Source of the DNA: an uncultured Desulfomonile sp.
Lineage (GTDB): Bacteria; Desulfobacterota; Desulfomonilia; Desulfomonilales; Desulfomonilaceae
Direction: 5' to 3'
Length of the DNA: 64,000 bases
Assembly (NCBI GenBank): GCA_964542775.1
Contig: CAZIVV010000010.1
Span: 1-64,000 of the forward strand
Part shown: positions 25,524 through 41,824 of the stretch, piece by piece
Numbering within the stretch: the first letter of the stretch is position 1
Layout: every line of letters begins with the position of its first letter
Made by a program: the position numbers and the translations under genes
The notes under the pieces: generated by a model
Database searches by the model: none
Told to the model about the DNA's origin: nothing
What the model saw: the letters and a program-made list of their open reading frames with translations, nothing else

Positions 25524-27014
25524 TCATGACTTTTTCTGATCAACATTTTGTTCCTGTTTTGTTGCTTTACCAAGAAATTCGGGTAATTCCAATCCTGCTA
25601 CTTTTGCCAGTTCATGCATTGGCGGAATCACGCCCATGAATCTTCTGCCCAGATCAGACAATCCCCCATCTCCTCCACCGTCCCATACAATCACTTTCTC
25701 CAGTGGCAGATTCTTCACGGCTTCAGCCTGAATTCGAGTGAGTTCAGCAAGTTTCTCAATAATCAACAGGGCCGCGGTGAGTTGAGTATCCGACTGGCAG
25801 GCTTCCACCAGTTCCTTGTAGCCATGAGCCTTTGAGTCAAGCTGTGACTTTACTCCTTCAGCCTCCGCCTGCATTCGGGCAAGGATAGCCTCAGCCTCAC
25901 CCTGCGCCACCAGAACGCTTCTCTGACGCTGAGCTTCGGCCTCCAGAATGGCCTTCTGTTTCTCAGCTTCGGCGAACACAATGACCTCAGCGTTCAGCCG
26001 GGCCTGTTCCCTTTGCGCTCTGGCCTCTTCTGCCCTTCTCTGGGCATCCTGCTCGGCCACTCTGATAGATCCATCGGCCTGAACCAGAGCGACCTGACCC
26101 TTGGCTCTAGCCTCTTCTTCGGCAACCTTGCGAGTGGCCTGGGAATTGGCCACCGATGCGCTTGCCTTGGCCTCGATGTCAACTGCTTCCGCATCAAGCA
26201 TTGATACTTTCTGTCTTCTGTCACGAGAAGCTTCAGCCTCACCGATCATTGCCTCAGCATCCGCTGCCGCAAGAGCTTTTCTTCGATCTCTCTCGGCTTC
26301 AGCCTCTCCTACTGCGGCAGCGGCATTTGCAGCAGCCACAGCCCTTTTCTGGTCACGCTGTCTTTCTGCTACTCCGATAGTTCCGTTCTTTTCCTGCTCG
26401 GCAACATCAACAAGAGCCTGGTTAACCGCTTCCGCCGCCGCTTTTCGACCGAGCGCCTTTATGTAACCGCTATCATCCTCAATATCCTTGATGTTGACAT
26501 TAATCACCGAAAGACCGATTTTCTCCAGCTCGACGGAAAGTGATTCATTGACCTTGGTCATGAATGCCTGACGGTCGCGATTGATTTCTTCTATTCTCAT
26601 CGTTGCCATGACCTGTCGCATCTGTCCCAGTATTACACTCTGAGCTTGAGCCTGAACCTCCTCGACTCCTTGTCCGAGCAATCGGATGGCCGCATTCTGC
26701 ATTATGCCTTCTTCTGTGCTAACGGCGACTGTAACGGTGGTCGGGACGGTTACCCTGATATTCTCTTGAGAGAGAGCATTGTTCAGATCAATTGGGACAA
26801 CAAAAGGTTCAAGTTCCAGCCATGCAAAATCCTGAAATAGTGGCCACACAAATGCCGCTCCTCCGTGAATGCACTTTGCGGCCCCTCTTCCCGTCTTACC
26901 GTAAATTACAAGTATCCGGTTGGCCGGACAGCGCTGATAACGTGAACTCAACGCCCAGATAATCGAAATAAGCAATACTGCCAATACAACACTTATGGTT
27001 ATCGCCGCAGTCAT
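25524..27014 (-). CDS. Flotillin-like SPFH/band-7 domain protein (FloA/YqiK family) with long Ala/Glu-rich coiled coil
   Basis: N-terminal TM helix, SPFH core, and an extended EA-repeat coiled coil (AEAERDRRKALAAADAEAMIGEAEASRDRR...). The start is chosen at MTAAITI, with a GGAGG Shine-Dalgarno 9 nt upstream. Confidence 0.85.
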   Translation of the reverse strand: MTAAITISVVLAVLLISIIWALSSRYQRCPANRILVIYGKTGRGAAKCIHGGAAFVWPLFQDFAWLELEPFVVPIDLNNALSQENIRVTVPTTVTVAVSTEEGIMQNAAIRLLGQGVEEVQAQAQSVILGQMRQVMATMRIEEINRDRQAFMTKVNESLSVELEKIGLSVINVNIKDIEDDSGYIKALGRKAAAEAVNQALVDVAEQEKNGTIGVAERQRDQKRAVAAANAAAAVGEAEAERDRRKALAAADAEAMIGEAEASRDRRQKVSMLDAEAVDIEAKASASVANSQATRKVAEEEARAKGQVALVQADGSIRVAEQDAQRRAEEARAQREQARLNAEVIVFAEAEKQKAILEAEAQRQRSVLVAQGEAEAILARMQAEAEGVKSQLDSKAHGYKELVEACQSDTQLTAALLIIEKLAELTRIQAEAVKNLPLEKVIVWDGGGDGGLSDLGRRFMGVIPPMHELAKVAGLELPEFLGKATKQEQNVDQKKS

Positions 27015-27015
27015 T

Positions 27016-27636
27016 TCAATAATCCTCCGAATCCCACAATTCAATTACCTCGACCGTGTTTTGGTTAACAATGTTGACTACTTTAACTTTTGCCCCCTCC
27101 TTTATCGGAACGCCACTTTTACTGCAGGCGTTGATTACACTCATGACGCCTCTGACAAGCAACCTTACCTTACCCAGCCCGTTAGCCGGAATGTCTATGT
27201 ATACCGTTCCCTCCTCGCCAATTGCCCACGCGGCCGAGATATTTCCCTGTTCCTGCATGCCAAGGAAAAAATGCAGTATTGCCGATACGCAGAGCATTGC
27301 CAGGAAACCCCATAGAAAACTGTATGAAAGAGCTACCAAAACATGGGCGTTATCAGCAAGGTACAGTGAGCCTGACCAACTAAAAATAGTGGCGAATGCG
27401 AGCATGGACCGAACGGAAATCAGCACAAAGGCGCCAGAGCCCAAATCATGAGCCACATCATGAGCAGAAGGATCAGAGTCAGCGTGAGTTTCTGCCGAAC
27501 CAGCATGACCAAAGTCATGAGAATCTACCCCAACTGCCGTCATTACGATCTGCCAGGCGAACAGAAGCGTAAATATGACAGCAGAACACACAAAAACACG
27601 GTTTAGTGTTGAAAGTCCCTCCCACCAAAGTTCCAT
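27016..27636 (-). CDS. NfeD-like membrane protein (YqiJ family), the usual partner of flotillin
   Basis: N-terminal TM helices plus a C-terminal soluble (OB-fold-like) tail. Its stop abuts the flotillin start, giving the classic nfeD-floT operon arrangement. Confidence 0.7.
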   Translation of the reverse strand: MELWWEGLSTLNRVFVCSAVIFTLLFAWQIVMTAVGVDSHDFGHAGSAETHADSDPSAHDVAHDLGSGAFVLISVRSMLAFATIFSWSGSLYLADNAHVLVALSYSFLWGFLAMLCVSAILHFFLGMQEQGNISAAWAIGEEGTVYIDIPANGLGKVRLLVRGVMSVINACSKSGVPIKEGAKVKVVNIVNQNTVEVIELWDSEDY

Positions 27637-28568: not shown

Positions 28569-30209
28569 CTACATTTTGAGACGCTCTCTAAGATTGGAGG
28601 CCCTGTTACTGTAAGCCGCGGCTTTCTCAGTCTTGCCAAGGGCTTCCCAGCATCTTGAAAGATTTTCAAGAACAGTCAGGACCAATGGCTCTTCAACCCG
28701 TCCTGTAGATTCCAGACGACTAAGAGCCAATTCAAACCAGCAAATAGCAGTCCTAAAACTGCTCTTGTTGTATTCTTCCTCACCTCTGAGGTTGAGATCC
28801 TCTGGAGGCCATGAGGAATACTGACGTATAATAGATGCGCAGGGATCCTGAGGCGGCACAGTCTGAGTAACTATTTCCGGAGGTTCTATCTCAGTTACGA
28901 CTGGCACAGGCTCACTGATTCCCACAATGGCGATGGGAGGCCAGGGTCGTCTCCACCAAGGCCTTATCCAGGGAGGCCTGGCTCTCCACCAAGGCCACGG
29001 TCTGGCCCATGGAGGTCCCCATCTCCACCACGGGGCGCCCCATCTAGCCAAACCTCGACCCGGGCCGATGATTCGACCTCCCGGACCAACTACCCGAATG
29101 CCTGGTCCTACAATCCTACCCCCCGGTCCAATAATTCTTCCTCCCGGACCGATGATTCGACCTCCCGGACCAACTATTCTGGTTCCTGGACCAATGATAC
29201 GTCCGCCAGGACCTATGATTCTTCCTCCAGGCCCGACTACACGCCCGCCAGGCCCTATGATTCGACCACCGGGACCAACAATTCTGGTTCCTGGACCAAT
29301 GATACGTCCGCCTGGTCCAACAATTCTTCCTCCTGGTCCTACAATCCTGCCCCCCGGACCAACAATTCTGGTTCCCGGGCCAATGACACGTCCACCTGTT
29401 CCGGTTGTGCGCCCACCGCTTATAACCCTACCGCCAGTGATCCTTCCACCACCGGAGCTAATTATTCTTCCACCTCCGATTTGGCCTGTTCCGGTTGTGC
29501 GCCCACCTGTGCTTATGATCCTGCCTCCACCTCCCGATATCACTCTACTTCCACCTGTGCGCACTCCAGTTGTTGTTGTGGCGCCACCCAGGCGTCCACC
29601 GCTGGTGGTCGTTATTCTCCCACCACCTGTTCGAATGCCACCCGTCCTTATGGTTCCGCCTGTTGCTGTCCTCCCACCTGTAGCGCTTATGACTCTGCCA
29701 CTTCCAGTTCGGGAGCCGCCCACAACGACTCTGCCAGAGCCTCCTGAGAAGCCTCCAGTGCGGATGGTATGAGATCCTCCACTACGGCCACTGCCCGTCC
29801 TGATTACTCTTGAGCCACCAGTTCTGACGCCGCCAGTTCGAACGGTAGGGGTTGAACCGACGCGAACGCCACCCGTCCTTATTGCCCTGCCGCTACCCGC
29901 TCTGGATCCGCCAGCGCTGATGACCCGACCACCACCGGCTCTGCCGCTACCGTAACCAATGCTTCGACCGGCGCTGAATCCGGCTTGTCTGCCACCGTGA
30001 CCAAAACTGCGACCGCCTCCTCTTGGGCCATAGTCAGCAAGGGCAGAGGACTTTTCATTTTCCGTCACTGTTCGATTTAACTGTGGCTTCAAATCGGTGG
30101 CCGAGGAATTTGAGTCGGCTACAGTTGGACAGGGACAGAGAATCATTGCAAGGATTATGGCCAAAAGTAAGGCGTATTTAGTATCCCAGAAAACCAAGAA
30201 AGGATTCAT
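28569..30209 (-). CDS. Exported Gly/Arg-rich tandem-repeat protein with a Trp/Arg/Pro-rich segment and a small C-terminal helical domain
   Basis: A signal peptide is followed by about 250 aa of R-T/S-G-G type repeats and then about 15 GPGGRI(I/V) heptads. After these comes WGAPWWRWGPPWARPWPWWRARPPWIRPWWRRPWPP, and the last ~130 aa form an alpha-helical domain. Codon usage and frame are consistent. The plus-strand ORF 28927..29772 is its Pro-rich mirror. Confidence 0.6.
   Translation of the reverse strand: MNPFLVFWDTKYALLLAIILAMILCPCPTVADSNSSATDLKPQLNRTVTENEKSSALADYGPRGGGRSFGHGGRQAGFSAGRSIGYGSGRAGGGRVISAGGSRAGSGRAIRTGGVRVGSTPTVRTGGVRTGGSRVIRTGSGRSGGSHTIRTGGFSGGSGRVVVGGSRTGSGRVISATGGRTATGGTIRTGGIRTGGGRITTTSGGRLGGATTTTGVRTGGSRVISGGGGRIISTGGRTTGTGQIGGGRIISSGGGRITGGRVISGGRTTGTGGRVIGPGTRIVGPGGRIVGPGGRIVGPGGRIIGPGTRIVGPGGRIIGPGGRVVGPGGRIIGPGGRIIGPGTRIVGPGGRIIGPGGRIIGPGGRIVGPGIRVVGPGGRIIGPGRGLARWGAPWWRWGPPWARPWPWWRARPPWIRPWWRRPWPPIAIVGISEPVPVVTEIEPPEIVTQTVPPQDPCASIIRQYSSWPPEDLNLRGEEEYNKSSFRTAICWFELALSRLESTGRVEEPLVLTVLENLSRCWEALGKTEKAAAYSNRASNLRERLKM
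29058..29395. repeat. Tandem array of about 15 imperfect 21-nt repeats encoding the GPGGRI(I/V) heptad
   Basis: Plus-strand unit CC(N)GGNCCNAYNATNCGNCCNCC. Copies differ mainly at wobble positions, so the peptide is conserved while the DNA has diverged. Confidence 0.8.
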
Positions 30210-30367: not shown

Positions 30368-31600
30368 CTATTGCTTTGACGGCGTTGGCTTTGCAGACTT
30401 TTGGCCCCCTGCTTTCTTAAGTTGTTCCAGGGTCTTGCTGTCTCCAGTGACTCCTGCCAGTAGCAACGCTGTGGCGCCGTTATTTGCCTTGATGTTGACA
30501 TCTGCGCCTTTTTCGAGAAGGAGTTTAACCACTTCTTCATTGTCAGGAAGAAAAGAAGCGTACATGAGAGCCGTTGCTCCTGTCCGCGTCTTTGCGTTTA
30601 CTTGGGCGCCTTTTTCAAGCAGCAACTTTACCAGCTCAAGATTACCGTCACCGGCAGCTACTATGAGTGGTGTAATCCCATCTTCATTTGCTTCATCAAT
30701 TTTTGCGCCTTTATCCAGAAGCAGTCTGACAGTTTCGGGATTTCCGGCGTTTGTGGCAAGTAAAAGAGCCGATGTCTTGTCTGGGGTTTTGGCGTTGATG
30801 TCGGCGCCCTTGGCTACCAGGCTTTCCGCCGCATCCGGTGTTCCACTATTGACTGCAGCCATGAGCGCTGTGATCCCCTTGGGGCCGGCTTTTGCATTAA
30901 CCTCGGCTCCAGCTTCTATCAACCAGTTAACCATTTCCGAATCATCATTGGCTGAAGCTACCATTAGCGGGGTATTACCCTTGTTGTCGGCTTCGTTGAC
31001 TTTTGCTTTGGCTCCAACGAGCAGTTTAGCCATGTCAATGTCGCCAAGCGCGGTAGCGATAAGAAGCGCAGTGAGCCCCTCCCTGGGCTCCTTGTAATTC
31101 ACGTTAGCGCCTTTCTCGCTGAGCGTTTTGGCCACATCCAGATTGCCCTCTGAAACGGCCTGGAGAAGAGCTGTGCGTCCGTCCATGCTTACAGCGTTTA
31201 CATCAGCCTTGTTTTTCAGGAACAGATCAACAAGATCGATGTTGCCGTCATAGGCGGCTATCATTAGTGGTGTTAGGCCATCCTTGGCGCTGGCAAGGTT
31301 GACATCAGCTCCAGCGTTGACAAGAAGTTCGGAAACTTCGAAGTCACCTCCCATGGTCGCAGTTATTAACAGCGTGTCGCCGTGGGAATCCTTGACATTA
31401 ACATTGGCCTTTTTGGCTATCAGTTCCTTTATTTGTGCGAGAGTGGAGGCGTCTGACTGGTTTTCCTGTTCTGGGTAAAGAGACTTGAACTGGGAAATCA
31501 GATTGTCCTCAAGTGTTCCACCCCAACTCGGAAGCTGGAAACCAACTCCGAAAAGTAGGAGAAAACTCATGATCACCGTAACTACTTTGGTAGATGTCAT
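30368..31600 (-). CDS. Exported ankyrin-repeat protein (about 10 ANK repeats)
   Basis: A signal peptide is followed by iterated G-x-TPL(H/M)xAAxxGxxxxVxxLLxxGAdvN units. Confidence 0.85.
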   Translation of the reverse strand: MTSTKVVTVIMSFLLLFGVGFQLPSWGGTLEDNLISQFKSLYPEQENQSDASTLAQIKELIAKKANVNVKDSHGDTLLITATMGGDFEVSELLVNAGADVNLASAKDGLTPLMIAAYDGNIDLVDLFLKNKADVNAVSMDGRTALLQAVSEGNLDVAKTLSEKGANVNYKEPREGLTALLIATALGDIDMAKLLVGAKAKVNEADNKGNTPLMVASANDDSEMVNWLIEAGAEVNAKAGPKGITALMAAVNSGTPDAAESLVAKGADINAKTPDKTSALLLATNAGNPETVRLLLDKGAKIDEANEDGITPLIVAAGDGNLELVKLLLEKGAQVNAKTRTGATALMYASFLPDNEEVVKLLLEKGADVNIKANNGATALLLAGVTGDSKTLEQLKKAGGQKSAKPTPSKQ

Positions 31601-32515: not shown

Positions 32516-33829
32516 CTATTTTGAAGGTTGAGTCTTTTTAATGTCCTCCTTTTTAGCAGGTTTTGCTGACTTATCGCTTTTGTCGTTGTTGATGAGGCTA
32601 GAATTGTTACCTGGATTTGTCATCCGGCCCATGAAAAGTATGATTCCACTGACATTGTCCTTGATAAAGAAAATAAAAGGTCTGTCTACCTTGAATGAAG
32701 TAACCTCGGGCGCCTTTGCCGAGAGTGAATCTGAAACATGACTTGCAGTAGTGGATGACGCTTGTGTTCCTTCCTCGTTAACCTCAACACGGACATTCTG
32801 AATGACAGATGAAATGTAAAGACCGTTAATTGAAGCCGGAGCAATTCCTGTGAAATCAGCCAGGCCCGGGTCGAAGGCATCTCGCATTCCCATAGAAACG
32901 AGGGGCTTGGACAATTCGGTTGATTGTTGAAGCTCAAACTTCGGAAAATGTAAAAGGACTCGGGTCAATTTCAACTGATCTTTCCAGGCCCTCAGATTCG
33001 TGGTGGACAGTTCGTCTTCGATTACTTTGATTCCATCCGGGTTATCAGGAAGCAAGACGCACATTGACAGTTCATTCCCAACGTAAGGAATCTCGATTCC
33101 CTGACAGACACTGTTCCTGAAGTGTCTGAAGTCAGCAGTTGTTTCCATCATGCTGGTTTCTATAGATCTTTTTTGGGTTATAAAAAATGGGGCTTTTTCC
33201 GTGAGGCTAGTGTCAAATTTCACGGCCCATTGACCCTTGAAGCTAATGGCGTTCATGATCAGCATCTTGGTGGCAGAGTTTAAGTTATCGGCAGACACTA
33301 TGTCCTTGATCCTGCCTCCTGTTTGTTGAAACACCCAGTCGTTAATAGACCTGGCTGATTCTACCGGTTTAGTGGAAAAATCCAGGGAGTTGGTAGAGAC
33401 CCGAAAATGGTTTTTCAAGAGGTTATGGTATTCCGGTCGAATCTCATATCCAATTTGAGGCCATAGGGAATTGGATATAACGATCTCAGATCCTTGGCTG
33501 TTGAGGCCATCTATTCTGGAACTCATAGAGGAGAATAGCGCTCCGATACTGTTGTCTTCCGCAGGGAACCTTAGTATCTCACTCATCTGTTTGCGAGTTT
33601 GTCCCTTACCCCCTGCCATTGCCATTGCCAGTGAGGCTGAAATACCGTATGGGGAGAAGCAGAGATTTCCTTCCTGATTACCCAGATGTTTGTAAAGATC
33701 CAGAGCGAAATCACTTTGTTGCCGGATTAACATGTCTATTCCGTTTGAGTCTTTGCAACCCACAGAGACACTGGCTAATATGAGGCTTACACTAAACGCC
33801 ACTGTAAATACTTTTAATACTGGTCTCAT
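32516..33829 (-). CDS. Serpin (serine/cysteine protease inhibitor) family lipoprotein
   Basis: Lipobox signal LASVSVGC. The serpin core is present (NLCFSPYGISASLAMAMAGGKGQTRKQM...; hinge VNEEGTQASSTTA; C-terminal FKVDRPFIFFIKD). A Lys-rich C-terminal tail follows. Confidence 0.8.
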   Translation of the reverse strand: MRPVLKVFTVAFSVSLILASVSVGCKDSNGIDMLIRQQSDFALDLYKHLGNQEGNLCFSPYGISASLAMAMAGGKGQTRKQMSEILRFPAEDNSIGALFSSMSSRIDGLNSQGSEIVISNSLWPQIGYEIRPEYHNLLKNHFRVSTNSLDFSTKPVESARSINDWVFQQTGGRIKDIVSADNLNSATKMLIMNAISFKGQWAVKFDTSLTEKAPFFITQKRSIETSMMETTADFRHFRNSVCQGIEIPYVGNELSMCVLLPDNPDGIKVIEDELSTTNLRAWKDQLKLTRVLLHFPKFELQQSTELSKPLVSMGMRDAFDPGLADFTGIAPASINGLYISSVIQNVRVEVNEEGTQASSTTASHVSDSLSAKAPEVTSFKVDRPFIFFIKDNVSGIILFMGRMTNPGNNSSLINNDKSDKSAKPAKKEDIKKTQPSK

Positions 33830-33913: not shown

Positions 33914-35346
33914 TCAATTCCTGAACCTGAACTCCTTGACTATGCCGTTCGGATCCACGAGACACGGTGTTGGGGGATTTGGTATGTGGCGTTTGCGCTT
34001 GTCGTACCAGTCTGCCACGTTTTCTTTTGCCAGATTGAAAGCAGCTTCCAGGTCCTGGCTACCCTGTTTTATAGCCTCAACAAGAAAGTACGTCAGAACA
34101 CCACCCTGCAACTTGGGATGAGAGTATGAAGTCTCATGTTTGAGCGCCGAGGCGATGAATGCCAGGTTGTCATTGTCATAATCGGGAACAGCGCTTTTCT
34201 CAGTGACGGGAAATTCTTCGTCTGCTCCCTCTAGGGCTATGTAATCGGAAATAAGCTCTGGATCAGTAATTTGAAAATGTTTTGCCATTGCTCTACTATG
34301 GCAGGAATCAACGATAAGTATTTTTTTTCTGGCAGGTATCTTATTGATCAGCTTAGTTAATTCTTTCTTGGATAGAAGATGTTTTTTGCCTCTGAACTGC
34401 GGAGTAGCAGCAAGTTTTTGTCCAGGATAGAGGACGAGGAATCCTTCTCCTCTTACGTTACCACCATGTCCGCTGAAGTAGATTATGGCTGTATCTTCAG
34501 GCTGGGTTACTGAAGCAAGCCATTTCAAACCAGAAACACTCCCTGGAAAATCGGCAGCGGCGTCCCGGAGCACTTTCAAATTCGAATTTTCTATCCCTGC
34601 CTTGGCCTGAAATGTCTCGGCTATCCTTACTACAGTATTATCGTGCGGTCTGTCATCCCAGACACCGTGGCCTGAAATTGCCAGGAGATAAGTTTTAGAT
34701 TTCTCAACGATAGGTGGCGCTGGTGGAGGTCCTGAGCCTATTGTAATGTTTAACTGAGCAGTCCCCCAATTGACGTTTTGTCCAACAGTTTCCGCGTTCC
34801 TCTGAAAGCGTATGGCAAGATCTTTAGCGTTTCCACGGTATTCCTTGAATCCAGTTTTCTGGATTTGCTGAAATTCCTGCTCCGAGAGAATCTTGCCTTT
34901 TTCGGATGTGGCATAAGCGATTATTCGCTCAGTTCCACTGGGGCCAGCTATTCTGAACCTGAACTTATCTCCGGTTGCTGGAAAATTGCGTGTTACATTT
35001 GCCTCAATTTTGTTGTCGGATCCCGAGTAATCATTAGGCCAAATCCTTAGAATACGGCCTGATGTGCCCATGTCCATCAGGGTGACATAGCACTCCCTGT
35101 CCGCCGAAAAGCTGAGTTTCAGCTCATCACCTGGATTTAGTGAATCCTTCTCAGTTGACAGAGTTATCCTGATGTTATTCGTGGAACCCGAATTCGTGGG
35201 AAGGATGTTGATATCCTTCCAGTCCTTGGTTCGTGCCAAACCCTGAGAATGAGATGCGTTAGCGCAAAATAGGAGAGTGATGGTAACTATGGCTGCTGAA
35301 GCAATGATTCTGATTAGACGTCCCATCCCGAACCTCCCGTGAAACA
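33914..35346 (-). CDS. Exported DUF4384-like domain + C14 caspase-like (orthocaspase/metacaspase) peptidase
   Basis: N-terminal DUF4384-like beta-domain (ECYVTLMDMGTSGRILRIWPN). The caspase catalytic dyad is in the C-terminal half, with His in YFSGHGG and Cys in LIVDSCHS. The start is at MGRLIRII, with a GGGAGG Shine-Dalgarno upstream. Confidence 0.75.
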
Positions 35347-35489
35347 ATAGAACCCCAACTGAATAATAAAATACCGAAAGCCCGTTATCTCAAAAAGTCA
35401 GCCAACTCATGATTGAGCTTAAGTTAGTAATGAAATCCATTGCTTATACCAGAAAGCTGTTTAATTTGCCTACAGTCCTGCAGCCTGGC

Positions 35490-36614
35490 TTAAGGTTTAA
35501 GAATTACTAACCCGTTCAAGAATTTTTCGACATCTTCCTTGAATTTGGGAAAGGCGCTTTCCGGACAGGAACTAATGAGCTGAACTAGCGCAGTTTTGCC
35601 AACCCACAGGTATCCATTAAAAATGAAGGGCGTTCCGTCGATCTTTCCATTGAGTGTCATGGAGGTCACCGTATAATTATTCGACTTTATCTCCTTTTCC
35701 TCCTTGAGTGTAATGTCGCCAATCATAGCTTTCAGGTACTCAAGAAATGCTTTTTTGGCCATTTCGACTGAAACCTCGCCTGAAACCTGTTGGACGATAA
35801 CAACCACGTCTAGCTCGCCTGAGCCATGGGTGAAAGCAGCTTCTGCCGTGTCGCCTGGAACCGGGGCCGATGTCCATTTGGTGTGGTCATACTTTATTTC
35901 ATAGAGACCATCTTTTCCCTTGAAAACTCCGGGTTCCTCAGGGGGTCTGGTTTCAGTTGTAACTTTAGGTGGCTCGGCAGGAGGCGGAGTCGTGACTGGT
36001 GCGGCCTCGACAATCTTGAAAGAGTATTCCTTTGTGGCCCATTTGCTGTGGTCAATTTTCTGAAAGGCTACTCCTATGTCCTTCATGACAACGGAGGGAT
36101 TCTTCATGCTCAGGAACACCTGACCCTTTTCAGGACCGGTCTCGATCGGCTGCTTGAGCTCTTCCTGTAACGATTGAATTTTGGAAAGCACAGGATCCAG
36201 AGATGCCAGAACCTTGATTCGCTCTGTGCCAACTGGAGGCATTACCCTGTAGGTGAAGTTGCTGCCCAGTGGGGGTATATTATAAATCCTGTCTTTCTCA
36301 ATCCTGTTTTCGACATGCCATTTGTTTGGGAAAAGCACGATCGTTTTTCCGCTGCTCCCGATGTCCAGGAGAGCCACATAACAGTCCTTGTCCGCCTTAA
36401 ACTGAAATACCACGTCCTCTCCAATGCTGTATTCAGCTTTATCGGTCTTTATCTCCAGTTTGATCCCCGGATTCTCATTCTGAATCTGGTTTGAGAGTTT
36501 CAGAAGTTCCTCAGTGCTGTATCCCGCAGCCTCCTGACCGTGGAATGTGAGAGCGACTACGAACATTACGGCGAACAACGCCGATTGAAATAGCTTTTTT
36601 CTCATGGCGGACAC
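35490..36614 (-). CDS. Exported DUF4384-like domain protein (no protease domain)
   Basis: A signal peptide and the same module (DKDCYVALLDIGSSGKTIVLFPNKW) as the flanking caspase fusions. The C-terminal half is unassigned. Confidence 0.6.
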   Translation of the reverse strand: MSAMRKKLFQSALFAVMFVVALTFHGQEAAGYSTEELLKLSNQIQNENPGIKLEIKTDKAEYSIGEDVVFQFKADKDCYVALLDIGSSGKTIVLFPNKWHVENRIEKDRIYNIPPLGSNFTYRVMPPVGTERIKVLASLDPVLSKIQSLQEELKQPIETGPEKGQVFLSMKNPSVVMKDIGVAFQKIDHSKWATKEYSFKIVEAAPVTTPPPAEPPKVTTETRPPEEPGVFKGKDGLYEIKYDHTKWTSAPVPGDTAEAAFTHGSGELDVVVIVQQVSGEVSVEMAKKAFLEYLKAMIGDITLKEEKEIKSNNYTVTSMTLNGKIDGTPFIFNGYLWVGKTALVQLISSCPESAFPKFKEDVEKFLNGLVILKP

Positions 36615-36849: not shown

Positions 36850-39800
36850 TCATGATGTTTCCCCCACAAGGATAAAGCCGCTCCAGAAGAAGGGGTGTTT
36901 ATAGCCTTCGTCTCTAATGTCCTGTCTGGCTTTTTGGAGTGATTCGATTTTTGTCTTGCCCAAGGTTCGATACTTGAAGAAGTTGGCGGCCAGTGTTACT
37001 GCGGATGAAGCCTCGACTTCCCATAATGACATCAGGACAGATTTAGCCCCTGCATATTGGAAGGCGCGTCCCATGCTCACAACTCCCTCTCCCGATTGGG
37101 CCTTCCCAAGTCCGGTCTGACATGCCGTTAGAGCCACTACATCCGCATTCATTTTTAAAGAAAGGATGTCGGACATTTTCAGAAAACCGTCTACGCCGTG
37201 CGGAACCATAGTGAGCGCAAGAAACGGTTCCATGATCCCGGCCGTCTGGTTAGAAACTACTCCATGCGTAGCAAAAACAACGTTGCCGTACCGACTGAGC
37301 CCGGGGGCAACACGAGTGAGAAAGGCTGTTTTGTCGGCTTCAAGTCCTGTTAGGGCCATGCACTTGGATCCGTATATATTTTGCAAACTCTCGGCTAGAT
37401 CTCCCGTTTCGGGAAGACGCCTGAATTTGAGGCTGCCGCTATCCTCTATGGCCTGCATCAGTCTTACGTTGTAATCTTTTTCACTTTGGGCCAATGCGGT
37501 AGGGGTGGCTAACTGGGCTCGTTGGTCGTTCAGATTGAATACTGGGTCAGCTACAACCAGAAGGCTGTCTTTTGGCTTTTCCCTGCCGCGGGTTTTTCTG
37601 ACCAGGGTGAGGGCCGAAAGGGACTGGTAATAGCTAACAGGATACATGTCACCCAGATACGTGACTCCTTCAGGATAATAAGTGAACTGCTCAGGCCAGT
37701 TTTTGCCCTCCAGCTTGCTCCATTTAGCCTGACCTGATGTGACCAACGCTTCAAATGGCAGCAAACATAGGATTCCATCAGGTATTATGATGAGCGGCGT
37801 TCCTTTGGGAACATCTACAAGAACTGCCTGAACCAGTTTACGGTAAAGACTTTTTGCCAGTTCAATGTCGAATTCCCGAAGATTCCTGTTTTCAAATGGC
37901 GCCCTGAATTTTAATACGTCCCTGACAAGATCTTCTGAGTCCCAGCTCTTGAAAAAACTCTCTGCCTCCTTCCTCTCCCGGATAAGCTTGATCATCACTC
38001 CCTGACGTGACACATCAAACATCAACACGCACTCGTCCTGGCTTAATCCGGAATCTTTAATACCCAGGGGGCGGGGATATTTCACTGCGGCGTATGCGGG
38101 ATAATTTTTCCAAAGCCCATCGATGAAGGATATCAGGTTAGCTTCGGCATCCTGGCACTCTCTTGAAAGGATTTCATATTTGACGGACTGACTGTTCCTG
38201 TCGGTCTTTGAAAGGTCTTTTTTGAGAGCAGCCAGCCTATTGAGGAGCAAGTGCTCCTCTTCCATGATTTCCTTCGGGGTTCCCGAGTTTCCGGAAGCCA
38301 CTTTCTCTGACAAATGGTCGGCAAAGGCCCTCGCTTTGGTAACCTCAATCGCCTGTATGCTTTCATCCTGTCGATTGAGTTTCATGCGAACCCTGGTGAG
38401 TCCTTTGGCCGGCTCTATTCGAGAAAAGCCTCCCAACCTTACCTCAAAGAAATTCTTGCGTTCCGAAGGTAAAAGTCCGGATCTTACCTCCTCAAGGAGA
38501 TTCATCGCTTTTTCATAATATTCGTCCGCCTTCTCATAGTTCTCCATGGCTTCATTGGCGGTTGCAAGACCGGTATAGCTTATGAAAAGGCCTTCAGAGT
38601 TTCCCGATTTCTCAAAGGCTCCAACGCTTTTCTCATAATACTTGGCTGCTTCTGGGTAGTCCTTCTTGATGAGAGCCAATCTTGCCTTCGTGGAATCATA
38701 TCCGGACGAGTTTGCTATGGCCTCAGCCTTGGACAGGGCTCCCATATCCATGAAGAGGTTTGCCAGGTTGTTTTCCTCGAATCTGGTTGGTTTACCAATG
38801 GCCCTGTCTATTTCGAGGGACTTTTTAAGGGCTGCCTCAGCCTCGGCGTATCTGCCCATGTCGGTGTATATGGCCCCTATGTTGGAATAATTGAGAGCCT
38901 CGCCAGCCCTGTCACCGATCCTTTTTCTGATTTCGAGTGACCTCTCATAATATTCAATAGCCTGGGAAGGTTGACCTACAGATCTATAAATAAGACCTAT
39001 GTTGGAAAGAACAATGCCCTGTCCCTTGACATCTCCTATGCTCTTTTTTATTTCAAGGGAACGTTCGTAACAATCCAGCGCTTTAGGATAGTGTCCCAGA
39101 GCACGATGGATGATCCCGATGTTATTGAGCGCTTTTGATTGTCCGGAAATATTCTGGATTTTCTTTGACAGCGCTAAAGAGCCTTCCTGACATTCAAGGG
39201 CCTTCTGATACTGGCCTCGAGAAAAGTAAACATTCCCCATTCCTATCAGAGAATTACTTTCTCCCCTCACGATTCCCAACTTTTTGTACGTTTCGAGAGA
39301 TTGTCTGAACTGTTCGAGAGCTTTGGTGTATTGGCCCAGGGAGTAGTAAACATCTCCAATAGCGACCAGATTATCTGCCTCTCCCCGAATGTTGCCAATC
39401 TTCGTGTTTATTTGTTTTGCCTGTTCAAAACATTTTGTTGCTCCGGGGTAGTCTCCAGTGTCATAATATACGCCACCCATGGCGGCCAGACTGATTGCCT
39501 CGCCACGGGTGTCACCTATTCTTCTCCTTGTTTCCAGTGCCTGTTCGTATTTTTTGAGCGCCTCCGGATATTTTCCCAGAGCTTTGTTTATACTTCCTAT
39601 ACTGTGAATTGACTCAGCGTTTCCTCGAAGATCTCCCAGTTTTTCCCTGATTTCAGCCGCAGTGGTGTAATACTTCAGGGCCTTTGTATATTGGGAAAGA
39701 GAATTGTAAATACCACCAATGGATTGATACGATCTTCCTTCACCCCGCTTGTTATTGATCTTTTTCATGATAGCCAGTGACTGTTCCATAAATGACAGGG

Positions 39801-40327
39801 CCTTATCGTATTGCCCGAGGGATTGGTAGACCCCACCGAGGTTGTCCAGCGCAACGGCCTCACCTTGCGGGTTAGATGATGATTTTGTTATTTCCAGGTA
39901 TTTTTCATAATATTCCAGAGCCTGTTTATAGCTGGATTGAGCCTGGTAAACTCTGCCGATACCGTTGGTTGACACTCCTTGACTCCACGTGTCAGCTGCC
40001 TTTTCACTTGAGACAAGGCCTTTTTGGTAAAACTCCAGAGACTTCTGATATTGCCCATGATCAAAGTAAAAATCGGCCATGGTATTGAATGTTCTGGCTT
40101 TTCCCTTTTCGGAACCTGCTTCTTCAAACATTCGCAAAGCATCCTGCAATTCTTTCAGCCCCGTCTGGCGTTCAGAAGAGGAATTGGCCTTTCTCAGCGT
40201 CTGCTGGCCTTGCTTCAATCTGTCGAAGCCCGCCTGTTCCTGCTGGGCTAAGGCGCACGGTAAAACCGCAAAAATTAAAAGAAGAATTGTGGCCAATCTG
40301 AATGTGTGCCAGGCCATCATGACCTCC
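36850..40327 (-). CDS. Exported TPR-repeat + CHAT-domain protease-like protein
   Basis: Signal peptide, then about 16 TPR units (repeated YxxALxxYExALxI motifs), then a C-terminal CHAT domain (LLVVADPVF...VVFATHGVV...ALTACQTGLG, the His/Cys dyad). The start is moved to MAWHTF, with a GGAGG Shine-Dalgarno 5 nt upstream. Confidence 0.85.
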
Positions 40328-40381
40328 GTTTTTCTATACAAGGCTGTCGAGGTTCATGCTTTGTTTGAAAGTAAAATTGCA

Positions 40382-41824
40382 TCACGGCGCTATATGCTTG
40401 AATTTAATGCGGATGACCTTGTCTGCCCCGACCACCTGTATCTGGTTTTCCATGCGTTGAAACAATTTCTCCCTGTTGGGATCCGAAAGCTGTTTAACTT
40501 TGTCAGGAACTGTATAATCCTCGATACCCATGAGGTTGAATTCACGCTCGAGTCCAGCAGAACGCAACTTTGAGTAAAGTTCTTCAAGTCTGGGGTTTCG
40601 CTCTCTGCTTGCGACAAGATATATGGTTTCTTCGCCTACGTTTTTATCCAGCACATACCAGTGCTTTCCCTGCTTGTAAGGTAGCCACTGGGTTTCACCG
40701 GCTTTTATTTCCCCAGAGCCTTCAGTAAGTTTGGGGTTCGGGAACAGACGCCCAACGTTTCCGTTGGAATCCCACCAGACAACATGCACGAAGCAGTCAG
40801 CGTCGGCCTTGAACGCCAGGCCCACTCGTTGCCCCGATTTTAAGGTCGCGTCATTAGCTAGGGGTTTTACCTCTCCATCGTCTTCCTGGGTCACGAACAG
40901 GGCTTCGATATTGAGAGGTTTGTCGTAAACAGGAGCCCTGAATATGGGGGTATTCTCTGCTTTTCCCTTGGCGGTGTATAGCTGGGGGTTCTGTCTGCCC
41001 CTAGTGGCTTCACGGGTCCCTTCATAGACAAAGTCGTATAGATCCTTGACCGTTATCACTCCATCGCCGGTGTTCTTGTAGGCGGCGCCTCTCAGACCTT
41101 TGAGTAAATAATGCGTAAACACGCTATTTCCGAATCGCTTGTCCTCCCAAGACACTTCATCTGGTCGGCTTGAGGCGAACCCGAATCTTCCCTGCAGATT
41201 CTGAAACACTGAGAAAAATATGTCGGCGGCCTTCGCTGTGGATTTGTCTAGAGCTGAACTAAAGCCTCCGGAATGACATGCGTCTGACATGAGAATCAAT
41301 CTGTCAGAATCAATGCCCTTAAAAAGTCCAGAAGTGTTCATTGGCAGGGCAGACCCAAAAAGATTCTCCACATCAGCGTCGTAAGTCAGAAAGTAGAATT
41401 CGTCGGTCCTAACTGGGTCGGATGCGCCATGTCCTGACAGAAATATTATGACGACATCATCCTTGCCAGCAGGTTTCAGATCATCCCTGATAGCTTTGGT
41501 GACATTTTCCCGGGTTGCCTGCTCGTTCACAAAAAGCCTTATGTGAGCCCTTTTGAACATTTTGGACCGCTCTTTTAGGAACACATGAAAATCCTGGGCA
41601 TCCTTCGGAGACAGTACGAGCTGATTCAGTTTTGTGTCGCGGTATTTCCCTATGCCAACAAGGACGGCATATAGCTCGCAATTGGCCAGCGCACCTGGAG
41701 TCGCGCATGCAACCTGTGACGGGAACACGAAGATTATTGCGGCTAGAAGCCACGATATCAATACCATGGTTAATCGCGCATAGATCCGGTCATGGGGGGT
41801 TGACACTGTTCCTGATCGATTCAT
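40382..41824 (-). CDS. Exported C14 caspase-like peptidase + C-terminal DUF4384-like domain
   Basis: p20-like region YAVLVGIGKY, with the catalytic dyad His in IFLSGHGA and Cys in LILMSDACHSGG. The C-terminal DUF4384-like module is DADCFVHVVWWDSNGNVGRLFPNPK. The gene's 5' end sits 4 nt inside the stop of the TPR-OmpA gene. Confidence 0.75.
   Translation of the reverse strand: MNRSGTVSTPHDRIYARLTMVLISWLLAAIIFVFPSQVACATPGALANCELYAVLVGIGKYRDTKLNQLVLSPKDAQDFHVFLKERSKMFKRAHIRLFVNEQATRENVTKAIRDDLKPAGKDDVVIIFLSGHGASDPVRTDEFYFLTYDADVENLFGSALPMNTSGLFKGIDSDRLILMSDACHSGGFSSALDKSTAKAADIFFSVFQNLQGRFGFASSRPDEVSWEDKRFGNSVFTHYLLKGLRGAAYKNTGDGVITVKDLYDFVYEGTREATRGRQNPQLYTAKGKAENTPIFRAPVYDKPLNIEALFVTQEDDGEVKPLANDATLKSGQRVGLAFKADADCFVHVVWWDSNGNVGRLFPNPKLTEGSGEIKAGETQWLPYKQGKHWYVLDKNVGEETIYLVASRERNPRLEELYSKLRSAGLEREFNLMGIEDYTVPDKVKQLSDPNREKLFQRMENQIQVVGADKVIRIKFKHIAP

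What the first reader, a model, noticed from the sequence alone, without database searches (positions are those of the whole stretch)
32516..33829. Bacterial lipoprotein serpin encoded directly between caspase-like and OmpA genes
Serpins are uncommon in bacteria. This one carries a lipobox (LASVSVGC) and a canonical hinge (NEEGTQASSTTA), and is followed by a reactive-centre stretch ASHVSDSLSAKAPEV. Alignment to alpha1-antitrypsin places P1 within VSD-S-L, and a Lys lies a few residues downstream. Eukaryotic and viral serpins such as CrmA inhibit caspases via an Asp P1. Here the serpin is the immediate neighbour of an Arg/Lys- or Asp-specific clan-CD peptidase. That suggests a cognate inhibitor-protease pair that gates the cascade.
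Basis: partly seen in the sequence, partly recalled or inferred. Interest (0 to 1): 0.7.

Follow-up and report, generated by a model that had tools for sequence, protein, structure and literature searches.

The report
Exported bacterial serpin paired with caspase-like protease
A real, probably inhibitory serpin gene sits next to a caspase-family protease gene in every related genome fragment I could check, and the serpin's bait loop and the protease's substrate pocket appear to have changed together, which points to a bacterial protease–inhibitor pair that may recognise aspartate.

Summary
Window 32516-33829 (minus strand) encodes a 437-aa full-length serpin (Pfam E=1.7e-107). It has a lipobox-type signal peptide, a canonical inhibitory hinge and a predicted exposed reactive-centre loop (RCL). 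It lies between a DUF4384-Peptidase_C14 gene ("C14_B") and an OmpA-like gene.

New evidence:
1. All 10 other loci that carry a close C14_B relative (50-63% identity) have a serpin directly downstream. None of 36 unrelated bacterial serpin loci has a C14 gene nearby.
2. More distant cassettes (35-49%) lack the serpin.
3. Nine syntenic-clade serpins keep one RCL residue invariant while its flanks vary: Asp367, 16 residues from the hinge Glu. That is the register used by the caspase inhibitor CrmA.
4. The serpin-linked C14_B clade has lost two of the three acidic S1 residues of metacaspases (D→T/S, E→S) and gained Arg/Lys there. A near-invariant linker Lys/Arg (VSK|Y) has become Asp/Asn (LISD|Y). 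This resembles the serpin's HVSD|S.
5. A sister cassette has Met at both sites.

Best reading: a periplasmic pseudo-substrate serpin that traps its neighbouring protease, whose specificity has switched. Nothing here is tested biochemically. The lipoprotein anchor is lineage-specific, and "gating a cascade" has no support.

The parts
32516..33829 (-). Serpin CDS, 437 aa
   Evidence: ORF. Pfam Serpin E=1.7e-107, full length. PDB sequence hits down to E=1.5e-63. AF2 model pLDDT 86.6 with serpin secondary structure.
33755..33829 (-). Signal peptide with lipobox (MRPVLKVFTVAFSVSLILASVSVG|C25)
   Evidence: Read directly from the sequence. It fits the PROSITE-type lipobox rule, which I recalled from memory. 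The Cys is absent from the orthologues, which have APA|AD-type sites.
32693..32776 (-). Hinge plus reactive-centre loop, E352-F379 (EEGTQASSTTASHVSDSLSAKAPEVTSF)
   Evidence: The hinge matches the inhibitory consensus ExGTxAxxx (PMC10090351, PMC8233489). Residues 357-370 have pLDDT<50, which suggests an exposed, mobile loop.
32729..32731 (-). Asp367 codon: proposed P1 (position 16 from the hinge Glu)
   Evidence: Invariant in 9 distinct syntenic-clade serpins, while positions 11-15, 17 and 21-27 vary. It also occurs in two further representatives, P0358 and P0378, as [VI]SDS. In two samples of other serpins Asp at this position is about 2-4%: 2 of 110 and 6 of 152.
32519..32611 (-). Lys-rich disordered C-terminal tail (residues 407-437)
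   Evidence: pLDDT about 44-51. A similar basic tail is present in P0004-P0007 and the L046 serpin, but not in P0009, P0010 or P0199.
33914..35347 (-). C14_B: exported DUF4384 + Peptidase_C14 protein, the proposed target of the serpin. The true start is probably the Met at residue 8.
   Evidence: Pfam DUF4384 E=1.8e-20 and Peptidase_C14 E=7.2e-14. AF2 pLDDT 86; Foldseek top hits are AtMC9, MALT1, AtMC4, GSU0716 and caspases. His294 and Cys349 are invariant in 53 homologues.
34121..34651 (-). Remodelled S1-pocket positions of C14_B: Arg233, Thr238, Arg352, Lys403, Ser409 (catalytic His294 and Cys349 lie in between)
   Evidence: Fixed differences between 15 serpin-linked-clade and 52 canonical (non-clade) homologues: D238 to T/S, G352 to R, D403 to K, E409 to S, plus an inserted D-x-R-P. 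The positions map to TbMCA2 Asp95 and to AtMC4 Asp137/Ser350/Asp352 (PMC4357240, PMC7206013). Codons were checked.
34241..34255 (-). C14_B linker motif L-I-S-D368-Y, the putative self-processing or self-inhibiting site
   Evidence: Canonical homologues have [LF]VS-K/R-[YF] here (K 49, R 3 of 52). The serpin-linked clade has D (11) or N (4). The L043 type has M. The precedent is AtMC4 Lys225 docked in the S1 pocket (PMC7206013).
31685..32476 (-). Exported OmpA-like (peptidoglycan-binding) protein, always directly downstream of the serpin
   Evidence: Pfam OmpA E=1.3e-14. The position is conserved in L037, L038, L039, L046 and the P0007 contig.
35490..36614 (-). Exported DUF4384-only protein
   Evidence: Pfam. 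In serpin-less cassettes a DUF4384-only protein occupies the serpin's slot.
36850..40341 (-). Exported TPR-CHAT peptidase (CHAT_A), an alternative target
   Evidence: Pfam TPR plus CHAT, E=6.3e-50. Present in L037, L042, L043 and L046.
40382..41824 (-). C14_A: Peptidase_C14 + DUF4384 with a canonical metacaspase-type (acidic) pocket
   Evidence: Pfam. Aligns to AtMC4 with ..PKD.. and DACHSGG conserved, and has ..EVSWE.
41821..42807 (-). TPR + OmpA-like protein, first gene of the cassette
   Evidence: Pfam. Conserved in L037, L046 and L047.
30368..31600 (-). Exported ankyrin-repeat protein
   Evidence: Pfam Ank. Conserved in L037 and L038.
28569..30209 (-). Exported Gly/Arg-rich repeat protein with a C-terminal TPR, probably the last gene of the cluster
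   Evidence: The C-terminus is conserved in L037.
43791..47090 (+). Second, divergently transcribed TPR-CHAT protein (CHAT_B)
   Evidence: Sequence read, where the C-terminal part carries the same CHAT-type His and Cys motifs as CHAT_A. NCBIfam gave only TPR-type matches. tblastn matches the CHAT genes of L037, L042 and L043.

Best explanation
The gene encodes an exported, inhibitory-type serpin. In this genome it is probably lipid-anchored. I propose it is the dedicated suicide inhibitor, a safety catch, of the caspase-family peptidase encoded immediately upstream (C14_B).

Proposed mechanism:
- C14_B descends from Arg/Lys-specific metacaspase-like enzymes, but its S1 pocket has been remodelled. 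Two of three acidic determinants are lost, and Arg and Lys residues have been gained.
- Its own linker or maturation site has changed from VS-K|Y to LIS-D|Y.
- The serpin presents the same kind of site (H-V-S-D367|S) on its mobile loop, 16 residues from the hinge, as CrmA does for caspases.
- Active C14_B would cleave after Asp367. It would then be trapped as a thio-acyl complex while the loop inserts into sheet A.

Shown here: the fold and family, the hinge, the gene linkage, and the co-variation of motifs.
Inferred: P1 = Asp367, the acid or Asn/Asp specificity of C14_B, the linker as a self-processing site, inhibition itself, and the localisation.
For: 1. The serpin looks competent. It gives a full-length Pfam match. 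The hinge E-E-G-T-Q-A-S-S-T has small residues. The AF2 model shows a native-like fold with a low-confidence, exposed loop at 357-370.

2. The linkage is strict and specific. C14_B, serpin and OmpA lie in that order in L037, L038, L039 and L046 and on the P0007 contig. C14_B is followed by a serpin in L040-L043. The P0009 and P0035 contigs are compatible but cut short. Among 36 other bacterial serpin loci none has a C14 within 10 kb, and one has a CHAT. Distant cassettes L047-L049 lack the serpin.

3. Asp at RCL position 16 is invariant in 9 distinct clade serpins that are only 41-47% identical to the window serpin. The surrounding positions vary. In two samples of other serpins Asp at this position is 2-4%. 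A 16-residue P-side is documented for CrmA, C1-inhibitor and alpha2-antiplasmin (PMC4493575).

4. The protease side tells the same story. There are fixed differences between 15 serpin-linked-clade and 52 canonical (non-clade) homologues at exactly the clan-CD S1 elements (alpha1/L1, L4, L5; PMC4357240): D238 to T/S, G352 to R, D403 to K, E409 to S, and an inserted Arg233. The acidic Ca-site loop is deleted. The catalytic His and Cys are kept.

5. The conserved linker residue is K/R in canonical enzymes, D/N in this clade and M in the L043 type. The L043 serpin (P0202) has Met at canonical P1. In AtMC4 the self-processing Lys225 sits in the acidic pocket made by Asp137, Ser350 and Asp352 (PMC7206013).

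6. The 64-kb window holds no other peptidase genes.

7. Every cluster protein has an N-terminal export signal, so the partners share a compartment.
Against: - There is no biochemical evidence at all.
- Every non-metazoan C14 enzyme characterised so far is Arg/Lys-specific (PMC5756287, PMC8283722).
- C14_B keeps the Asp two residues before the catalytic Cys (DSCHS). This is part of the acidic pocket in metacaspases.
- The co-variation rests on only two or three independent evolutionary events, so it is confounded by phylogeny.
- The L5 mapping (E409 = AtMC4 Asp352) rests on motif similarity and predicted secondary structure, not on coordinates. A direct sequence search of that region against the PDB found nothing.
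- The linker motif has not been shown to be a cleavage site.
- The canonical 17-residue count puts P1 at Ser368, not Asp367.
- P1' would be Glu in five of the nine distinct clade members.
- CHAT presence also correlates with serpin presence.
- Four clade members have Asn at the linker site, and their serpins are unknown.
Confidence: 0.5

Rival explanations
1. The serpin's cognate target is one of the TPR-CHAT peptidases of the cluster, not C14_B. The scissile bond would follow the conserved hydrophobic residue at position 18 (D-x-[LIMV]|S).
For: CHAT genes accompany the serpin in the window, L037, L042, L043 and L046. They are absent from the serpin-less L047 and L048. Nine clade RCLs keep [LIMV]18-Ser19. 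From my own recollection, not checked here, CHAT proteases of type III-E CRISPR systems cut after Leu or Met.
Against: - The serpin is always adjacent to C14_B, not to CHAT.
- L049 has CHAT genes but no serpin.
- An 18-residue P-side is longer than any natural inhibitory serpin listed in PMC4493575.
- P0358 and P0378 keep [VI]SDS but have Ala-Arg and Ala-Gly at positions 18-19.
- This reading does not explain the remodelling of the C14_B pocket and linker.
Confidence: 0.1
2. The serpin is a general protective inhibitor. It would shield the exported proteins of the cassette, or the cell envelope, from foreign or unlinked serine proteases, as proposed for miropin and the cellulosomal serpins. 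Its position next to C14_B would reflect co-expression only.
For: Most characterised bacterial serpins inhibit exogenous serine proteases (PMC10090351, PMC8233489). The serpin evolves faster than its flanking genes: 44% identity against 62% and 62%, as expected in an arms race. A lipid-anchored or periplasmic location is compatible with this role.
Against: - Asp is a rare P1 or P2 choice for broad protection. Most relatives carry Arg/Lys or hydrophobic residues at positions 15-18.
- The invariant Asp, set against variable flanks, argues for one fixed target.
- The serpin occurs only in those cassettes whose C14_B pocket is remodelled.
- No serine protease gene is linked.
Confidence: 0.2
3. The serpin does not inhibit. 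It would be a substrate, chaperone or scaffold of the cassette, and the conserved Asp would mark a processing site or a structural contact.
For: Non-inhibitory serpins exist. The window protein replaces the highly conserved shutter His with Gln (IQNVRVEV against IHKAFVEV). The RCL is 3 residues longer on the P' side than in most relatives.
Against: - The hinge keeps Gly-Thr at P15-P14 and small residues from P12 to P8, the signature of loop insertion (PMC8233489).
- The orthologues keep the shutter His.
- The fold is predicted with high confidence and the loop is exposed.
- P' length does not affect the trapping geometry. This last point is my own knowledge, not checked here.
Confidence: 0.1

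Closest known systems
CrmA / SPI-2 (poxvirus serpin inhibiting caspase-1 and caspase-8)
   Same: A serpin scaffold used against a family-C14 cysteine peptidase. Asp is presented as bait 16 residues from the hinge Glu, not 17 (PMC4493575, PMC7863939). The proposed mechanism is pseudo-substrate trapping.
   Different: CrmA is a minimal, cytosolic viral protein aimed at host caspases. This serpin is full-size, exported, bacterial, and encoded beside its presumed target. Its nearest sequence relatives are ordinary bacterial and clade-B serpins, so any similarity to CrmA is convergent. Inhibition is untested here.
AtSerpin1 with metacaspases AtMC9 and AtMC1 (Arabidopsis)
   Same: An endogenous serpin that restrains a non-metazoan C14 peptidase, including its autoprocessing (cited in PMC8233489).
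   Different: The plant pair works through a basic P1 (from my own knowledge, not checked here). The genes are unlinked and the proteins are not exported together. Here the bait is acidic and the genes are adjacent.
Characterised bacterial serpins: chloropin (8GXV), miropin, tengpin, thermopin, siropins
   Same: Same fold and hinge. Chloropin is the best PDB sequence match (E=1.5e-63). Miropin is also a lipoprotein (from my own knowledge, not checked here).
   Different: Chloropin uses Arg-Ser at P1-P1' in the 17-residue register (PMC10090351). These serpins are tested against foreign serine proteases, and the searches found no report of a genetically linked target protease. None of 36 generic serpin loci has a C14 neighbour.
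Metacaspases and orthocaspases (AtMC4, Yca1, TbMCA2, GSU0716), for the neighbour C14_B
   Same: Caspase-haemoglobinase fold, the His/Cys dyad and the D-x-C-H-S motif. They are the best sequence and structure matches. The linker residue docking in S1 has a precedent in AtMC4 Lys225 (PMC7206013).
   Different: The C14_B clade lacks the alpha1 Asp (TbMCA2 Asp95), the L5/p10 acid (AtMC4 Asp352) and the acidic Ca-site loop. It carries Arg233, Arg352 and Lys403 instead, and has Asp/Asn at the linker site.

Membership tests
Serpin superfamily (PF00079) | Full-length match to the serpin domain profile | tested here: met
   E=1.7e-107, 360 bits against a cut-off of 27. Residues 37-406 cover profile positions 2-370 of 370.
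Serpin superfamily (PF00079) | Serpin fold | tested here: met
   AF2 pLDDT 86.6 and pTM 0.83, with the expected order of helices and strands. There are 185 PDB serpin sequences at E<=1e-20. I did not run a fold search on this model.
Inhibitory serpins | Hinge consensus P17-P9 E-x-G-T/S-x-A/G/S, with no bulky or charged residue at P14 or P12-P9 | tested here: met
   E352-E-G-T-Q-A-S-S-T. The consensus is as quoted in PMC10090351 and PMC8233489.
Inhibitory serpins | P-side loop length of 17 residues (rarely 16) from P17 to P1 | tested here: inconclusive
   Asp367 is at position 16 and Ser368 at position 17. Which bond is cut is unknown. Both lengths occur naturally (PMC4493575).
Inhibitory serpins | Stressed-to-relaxed transition and a covalent complex with the target | not testable with these tools
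   This needs protein chemistry.
Cross-class, caspase-directed serpins (CrmA-like function) | Asp at P1 | tested here: inconclusive
   Asp is invariant at position 16 in 9 syntenic-clade serpins and in 2 further representatives. Its role as P1 is inferred.
Cross-class, caspase-directed serpins (CrmA-like function) | Demonstrated inhibition of a C14 peptidase | not testable with these tools
   Only gene linkage and motif co-variation are available.
Bacterial lipoproteins | Signal peptide ending in a lipobox [LVI..][ASTVI][GAS]-Cys | tested here: met
   ...LILASVSVG-C25 fits the PROSITE-type rule, which I recalled from memory. No dedicated predictor was available. The feature is not conserved: the orthologues lack the Cys.
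Peptidase family C14 (neighbour C14_B) | Caspase-haemoglobinase fold with a catalytic His and Cys | tested here: met
   Pfam E=7.2e-14. Foldseek hits AtMC9, MALT1, AtMC4 and caspases. H294 and C349 are invariant.
Metacaspase/orthocaspase type (neighbour C14_B) | Acidic S1 pocket: the equivalents of TbMCA2 Asp95 and Asp211, and of AtMC4 Asp352 | tested here: not met
   Only the Asp before the Cys is kept. The Asp95 equivalent is Thr238 and the Asp352 equivalent is Ser409. The second C14 (40382-41824) does meet this feature.
True caspases (C14A; neighbour C14_B) | Q-A-C-x-G active-site motif and the Arg/Gln/Arg S1 triad | tested here: not met
   The motif is D-S-C-H-S-R. The best relatives are metacaspases. 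An acidic specificity, if real, would be convergent.
Known anti-phage defence systems | Match to a system-specific PADLOC model | tested here: not met
   Only generic caspase, TPR, MotB and ankyrin hits were found.

The most novel reading that the evidence does not exclude
A lineage of bacterial (probably Desulfobacterota) periplasmic caspase homologues has switched from Arg/Lys to Asp (or Asn/Asp) P1 specificity, independently of animal caspases. In the same evolutionary step it recruited a serpin whose loop copies the protease's own maturation site. This would be a bacterial re-invention of the caspase/CrmA relationship. A sister lineage has done the same with Met, which would make protease specificity and serpin bait a co-diversifying module.
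Probability: 0.35. Interest if true: 0.85.

Novelty: new variant of a known kind. Interest (0 to 1): 0.72.

Why it matters
Reviews call the roles of prokaryotic serpins enigmatic. They also say that prokaryotes lack the regulated proteolytic networks in which serpins work in eukaryotes (PMC8233489). A serpin hard-wired to an endogenous protease would supply a physiological target and a first example of such a network in a bacterial envelope.

Reviews also state that caspases are the only C14 enzymes that cut after acidic residues (PMC5756287). A bacterial C14 with a de-acidified pocket and an Asp maturation site is a concrete, cloneable candidate exception. It bears on the old puzzle of caspase-like (DEVDase) activities reported in microbes whose metacaspases cannot account for them.

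The pair is small and testable: two exported proteins and one point mutation on each side.

Tried and rejected
- **Lys372 as P1 for an Arg/Lys-specific neighbour.** Rejected. Position 21 is K, K, R, N (five times) and S across the nine clade members.
- **A general serpin-C14 association in bacteria.** Rejected. None of 36 genome loci has one. Nostoc serpins with Asp at position 16 (P0039, P0048) have no C14 nearby, so Asp16 alone is not diagnostic.
- **C14_A as the partner.** Unlikely. It keeps the canonical acidic motifs and is not adjacent to the serpin.
- **A legumain-like (Asn/Asp) pocket.** This was only a lead from memory. The profile hits legumain at E about 0.2 over the His strand only. 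I kept it as a possibility (Asn at the linker site in 4 members) but did not pursue it.
- **Mapping the L5/p10 motif by a single-sequence PDB search.** No relevant hit.
- **Promoter and terminator scan.** Counts were at chance level and say nothing about co-transcription.
- **PADLOC.** No known defence system.
- **Horizontal acquisition by base composition.** The GC content of the serpin gene matches its neighbours.
- **Model coordinates.** They are not exposed, so contacts between the pocket and the linker could not be measured.
It was re-run without that sequence.
Full report
**1. The observation**

Window 32516-33829 holds a 437-aa ORF on the minus strand. A strong ribosome-binding site precedes it. 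It matches Pfam Serpin over the whole profile (E=1.7e-107) and 185 solved serpin sequences at E<=1e-20. The best is the bacterial serpin chloropin 8GXV, followed by SERPINB1, MENT and SERPINB3 (chloropin identified in PMC10090351).

The N-terminus, MRPVLKVFTVAFSVSLILASVSVG|C, is a lipobox-type signal. The hinge is E352-E-G-T-Q-A-S-S-T. The loop continues T-A-S-H-V-S-D367-S368-L-S-A-K372-A-P-E-V-T-S-F379.

An AlphaFold2 model built from 93 homologues (pLDDT 86.6) has the serpin secondary structure. Residues 357-370 have low confidence, which suggests an exposed loop, and the Lys-rich tail 407-437 is disordered.

**2. The surroundings**

The serpin lies in a run of same-strand genes. Every product starts with an export signal. 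In order they are:
- TPR-OmpA (41821-42807)
- C14-DUF4384 ("C14_A", 40382-41824)
- TPR-CHAT (36850-40341)
- a DUF4384-only protein (35490-36614)
- C14_B
- the serpin
- OmpA
- an ankyrin-repeat protein (30368-31600)
- a Gly/Arg-rich repeat protein (28569-30209)

A second TPR-CHAT gene is transcribed divergently (43791-47090). The rest of the window is ordinary chromosomal content and holds no other peptidase. The GC content of the serpin gene matches its neighbours. PADLOC finds only generic domain hits. The promoter and terminator scan is at chance level.

So this is an envelope system, not a cytoplasmic one. Names attached to homologues (Thermodesulfobacteriota, Deltaproteobacteria, Desulfomonile) suggest a Desulfobacterota host, but that is weak evidence.

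**3. Is the linkage real?**

*From the serpin side.* The closest homologues (41-47% identity: P0004-P0007, P0009, P0010) lie on contigs with the same order, C14_B then serpin then OmpA, wherever the contig is long enough (L037, L038, L039, L040, the P0007 contig).

*From the protease side.* A metagenome scan with a C14_B alignment returned three loci (L041-L043). All three have a serpin directly downstream. The 302-kb contig carrying P0126 (L046) shows the complete cluster.

*Controls.* Among 36 serpin loci from reference genomes (26-38% identity), none has a C14 gene within 10 kb and one has a CHAT.

More distant C14_B homologues (49%, 40% and 35%; L047-L049) sit in a recognisably related cassette: C14-DUF4384, DUF4384-C14, a DUF4384-only protein, then OmpA. 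These cassettes have no serpin.

The serpin is therefore an accessory gene, acquired in one branch of a widespread cassette and kept there since. It has diverged faster than its neighbours. Between the window and L037 the serpin is 44% identical, against 62% for C14_B and 62% for OmpA.

The exhaustive search of 1.84 billion representatives finds 57,474 serpins but only two representatives of this clade.

**4. The loop**

I aligned nine distinct clade serpins: the window, P0004-P0007, P0009, P0010, the L046 serpin and P0199. P0199 is 98.8% identical to the L042 fragment. Asp at position 16 from the hinge Glu is invariant, while positions 11-15, 17 and 21-27 vary. The loops read:
- SHVSD-SLS (window)
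- LSVPD-GMS
- MIATD-EIS
- SVIATD-EIS
- IMAPD-GIS
- IAVAD-SIS
- ITVPD-GIS

Two further representatives align to the window serpin without a single gap and carry SVSD-S and TISD-S (P0358, P0378). Their genomic context could not be fetched.

In other serpins, Asp at this position is 2 of 110 and 6 of 152. Most of those have Arg/Lys or hydrophobic residues at positions 15-18.

The canonical count of 17 residues, confirmed experimentally for chloropin's Arg-Ser, would make the variable Ser/Gly/Glu the P1 residue. A 16-residue P-side is the documented exception, used by CrmA, C1-inhibitor and alpha2-antiplasmin (PMC4493575). On conservation grounds Asp367 is the best P1 candidate.

The alternative, P1 = [LIMV]18 with Ser19, would need an 18-residue P-side. 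It is also not kept in P0358 or P0378.

**5. The protease**

A profile of 53 C14_B homologues aligns to AtMC4 and Yca1, with the family consensus ..L-K-Y-C-x-x-D-A.. on ..L-R-G-C-x-N-D.. and ..D-S-C-H-S-G-T.. on DSCHSGG. The family ancestor therefore had the metacaspase pocket, equivalent to TbMCA2 Cys92, Asp95 and Asp211 (PMC4357240, PMC6426788).

The AF2 model of C14_B (pLDDT 86) is closest to AtMC9, MALT1, AtMC4, GSU0716 and caspases.

I compared 15 members of the serpin-linked clade with 52 canonical (non-clade) homologues; three of those 52 had their locus checked and lack a serpin. This gave a short list of fixed differences:

| Position | Canonical homologues | Serpin-linked clade |
|---|---|---|
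| 238 | Asp | Thr/Ser |
| 233 | (absent) | two-residue insertion bringing an invariant Arg |
| 352 | Gly (CHSG) | Arg (CHSR) |
| 403 | Asp | Lys |
| 409 | Glu | Ser |
| acidic D-x-P-P-x-D-E-x-D-G-x-D-E loop | present | deleted |
| 327 | Asp | Lys |

The motif [EQ]-S-S-Y-E409 has the form of AtMC4 Q-T-S350-A-D352. Its Ser and Asp line the pocket that holds the self-processing Lys225 (PMC7206013). The predicted three-residue strand 408-410 is where L5 pairs with substrate in clan CD enzymes (PMC4357240).

His294 and Cys349 are invariant, so the enzyme is probably active. Two of its three acidic S1 determinants are gone, however, and four basic residues have been added around the site.

The net charge of the whole domain hardly changes (+0.4), so the shift is local.

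**6. The linker**

Nineteen residues after the catalytic Cys, the canonical homologues have a near-invariant [LF]-V-S-K/R-[YF]-x-P (Lys 49, Arg 3 of 52). In the serpin-linked clade this is L-I-S-D-Y-L (11 members) or S/P-N-Y-L (4 members). In the L043-type cassette it is L-V-S-M-Y-Q-P.

In the model this segment is confidently placed (block pLDDT 88) and forms short beta-bridges. That is how the AtMC4 linker around Lys225 behaves in the crystal structure (PMC7206013). I could not measure contacts because model coordinates are not exposed.

If this residue is the enzyme's own P1, then specificity is K/R in the canonical enzymes, D/N in this clade and M in the L043 type. The associated serpins fit:
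- L-I-S-D|Y in the protease against H-V-S-D|S, T-I-S-D|S or x-A-T-D|E in the serpin loops.
- In the L043 pair, L-V-S-M|Y against G-R-V-M|G, with Met at the canonical P1. The L043 serpin is 100% identical to P0202 over 353 residues.

**7. Mechanism and its limits**

The most economical reading is a pseudo-substrate safety catch. The serpin offers a copy of the protease's maturation site on a mobile loop and traps any prematurely active C14_B as an acyl-enzyme in the periplasm.

The gene linkage and the two-sided motif co-variation are shown. P1 identity, acid (or Asn/Asp) specificity, linker cleavage and inhibition are inferred.

Weak points:
- Every characterised non-metazoan C14 enzyme is basic-specific (PMC5756287, PMC8283722).
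- The Asp before the catalytic Cys is retained.
- Only two or three evolutionary events underlie the correlation.
- CHAT presence also tracks the serpin.
- P1' would be Glu in several members.

Rival explanations are: a CHAT target with a hydrophobic P1; general protection against foreign serine proteases; and a non-inhibitory role. The window protein alone replaces the shutter His with Gln.

What the cassette as a whole does remains unknown. ECF sigma and anti-sigma genes beside it in L046 and L047 hint at envelope-stress control.

**8. Comparison and novelty**

Functionally the closest systems are CrmA with caspases and AtSerpin1 with metacaspases. By descent the serpin is an ordinary bacterial, hub-type serpin, and C14_B is a derived metacaspase-like enzyme, not a caspase (it has DSCHSR, not QACxG).

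Full-text searches found no paper combining serpin with CHAT domain, and none linking a bacterial serpin to an orthocaspase or metacaspase. The library is incomplete, so this is absence of evidence only.

I rate the finding a new variant of a known kind: a serpin/C14 inhibitor-protease pair, here bacterial, operonic, exported and apparently acid-directed.

The lipoprotein generality, the role of Lys372 and the 'cascade gating' do not survive.

Noticed in passing
window 28569-30209 (-), and the antisense ORF 28927-29772 (+): An exported 546-aa Gly/Arg-rich protein made of about 20 imperfect 7-aa (21-nt) repeats, GPGGRI[IV], with a C-terminal TPR. Its C-terminus is conserved in L037. Being Arg-rich, it could be a substrate of the canonical Arg/Lys-type C14_A. 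The 281-aa plus-strand ORF is only the shadow of the repeats.
   Followed up: partly
P0093, P0242, P0247, P0253 (other metagenomes); window 30368-31600: Several bacterial serpins are fused to N-terminal ankyrin repeats behind a lipobox. In this cluster a separate exported ankyrin-repeat protein lies two genes downstream of the serpin. This hints at a recurrent serpin-ankyrin partnership.
   Followed up: partly
L043 (C14 367-1824, serpin from 1899); P0202, P0201, P0035, P0135, P0136: A sister cassette has Met at the conserved linker site (LVSM|YQP) and Asn at the alpha1 pocket position. Its serpin has Met at canonical P1 (AILGRVM|GH). This would be a second, independent match between protease and serpin.
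   Followed up: partly
L047, L048, L049: Serpin-less versions of the cassette carry a DUF4384-only protein exactly where the serpin sits here, between DUF4384-C14 and OmpA. DUF4384-only proteins may be the ancestral regulators or partners of these peptidases.
   Followed up: no
window 34466-34303 region of C14_B (residues 294-349): The serpin-linked C14_B clade has deleted the acidic D-x-P-P-x-D-E-x-D-G-x-D-E loop and changed L-[IV]-D-D-E to L-S-K-K-E. In metacaspases these regions bind calcium, so the enzyme is probably no longer calcium-activated.
   Followed up: partly
window 32804-32827 (serpin residues 335-342... s5A, IQNVRVEV): The window serpin (and P0010, P0358, P0378) has Gln where nearly all serpins have the shutter His (IHKAFVEV). 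The window protein also changes the next three residues.
   Followed up: no
P0130, P0132, P0133, P0134: Four members of the serpin-linked C14_B clade have Asn instead of Asp at the linker site, and DSCHARA instead of DSCHSRA. This recalls the Asn/Asp specificity of legumain. Their neighbouring genes could not be retrieved.
   Followed up: no
L046 1-1488; L047 16082-17802: An ECF sigma factor and a putative anti-sigma gene flank the cassette in two relatives. In the window that side is occupied by a divergent second TPR-CHAT gene (43791-47090), which has a poly-Gly run and an uncertain start.
   Followed up: no
window 25524-27636 (-): An SPFH/Band-7 protein with a long Ala/Glu-rich coiled region overlaps a 206-aa membrane protein, in an NfeD-like arrangement. 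The pair lies just downstream of the cluster.
   Followed up: no
window 552-1532 (-): A PRTase-CE domain protein (Pfam PF24390, E=2e-17) at the edge of the window.
   Followed up: no
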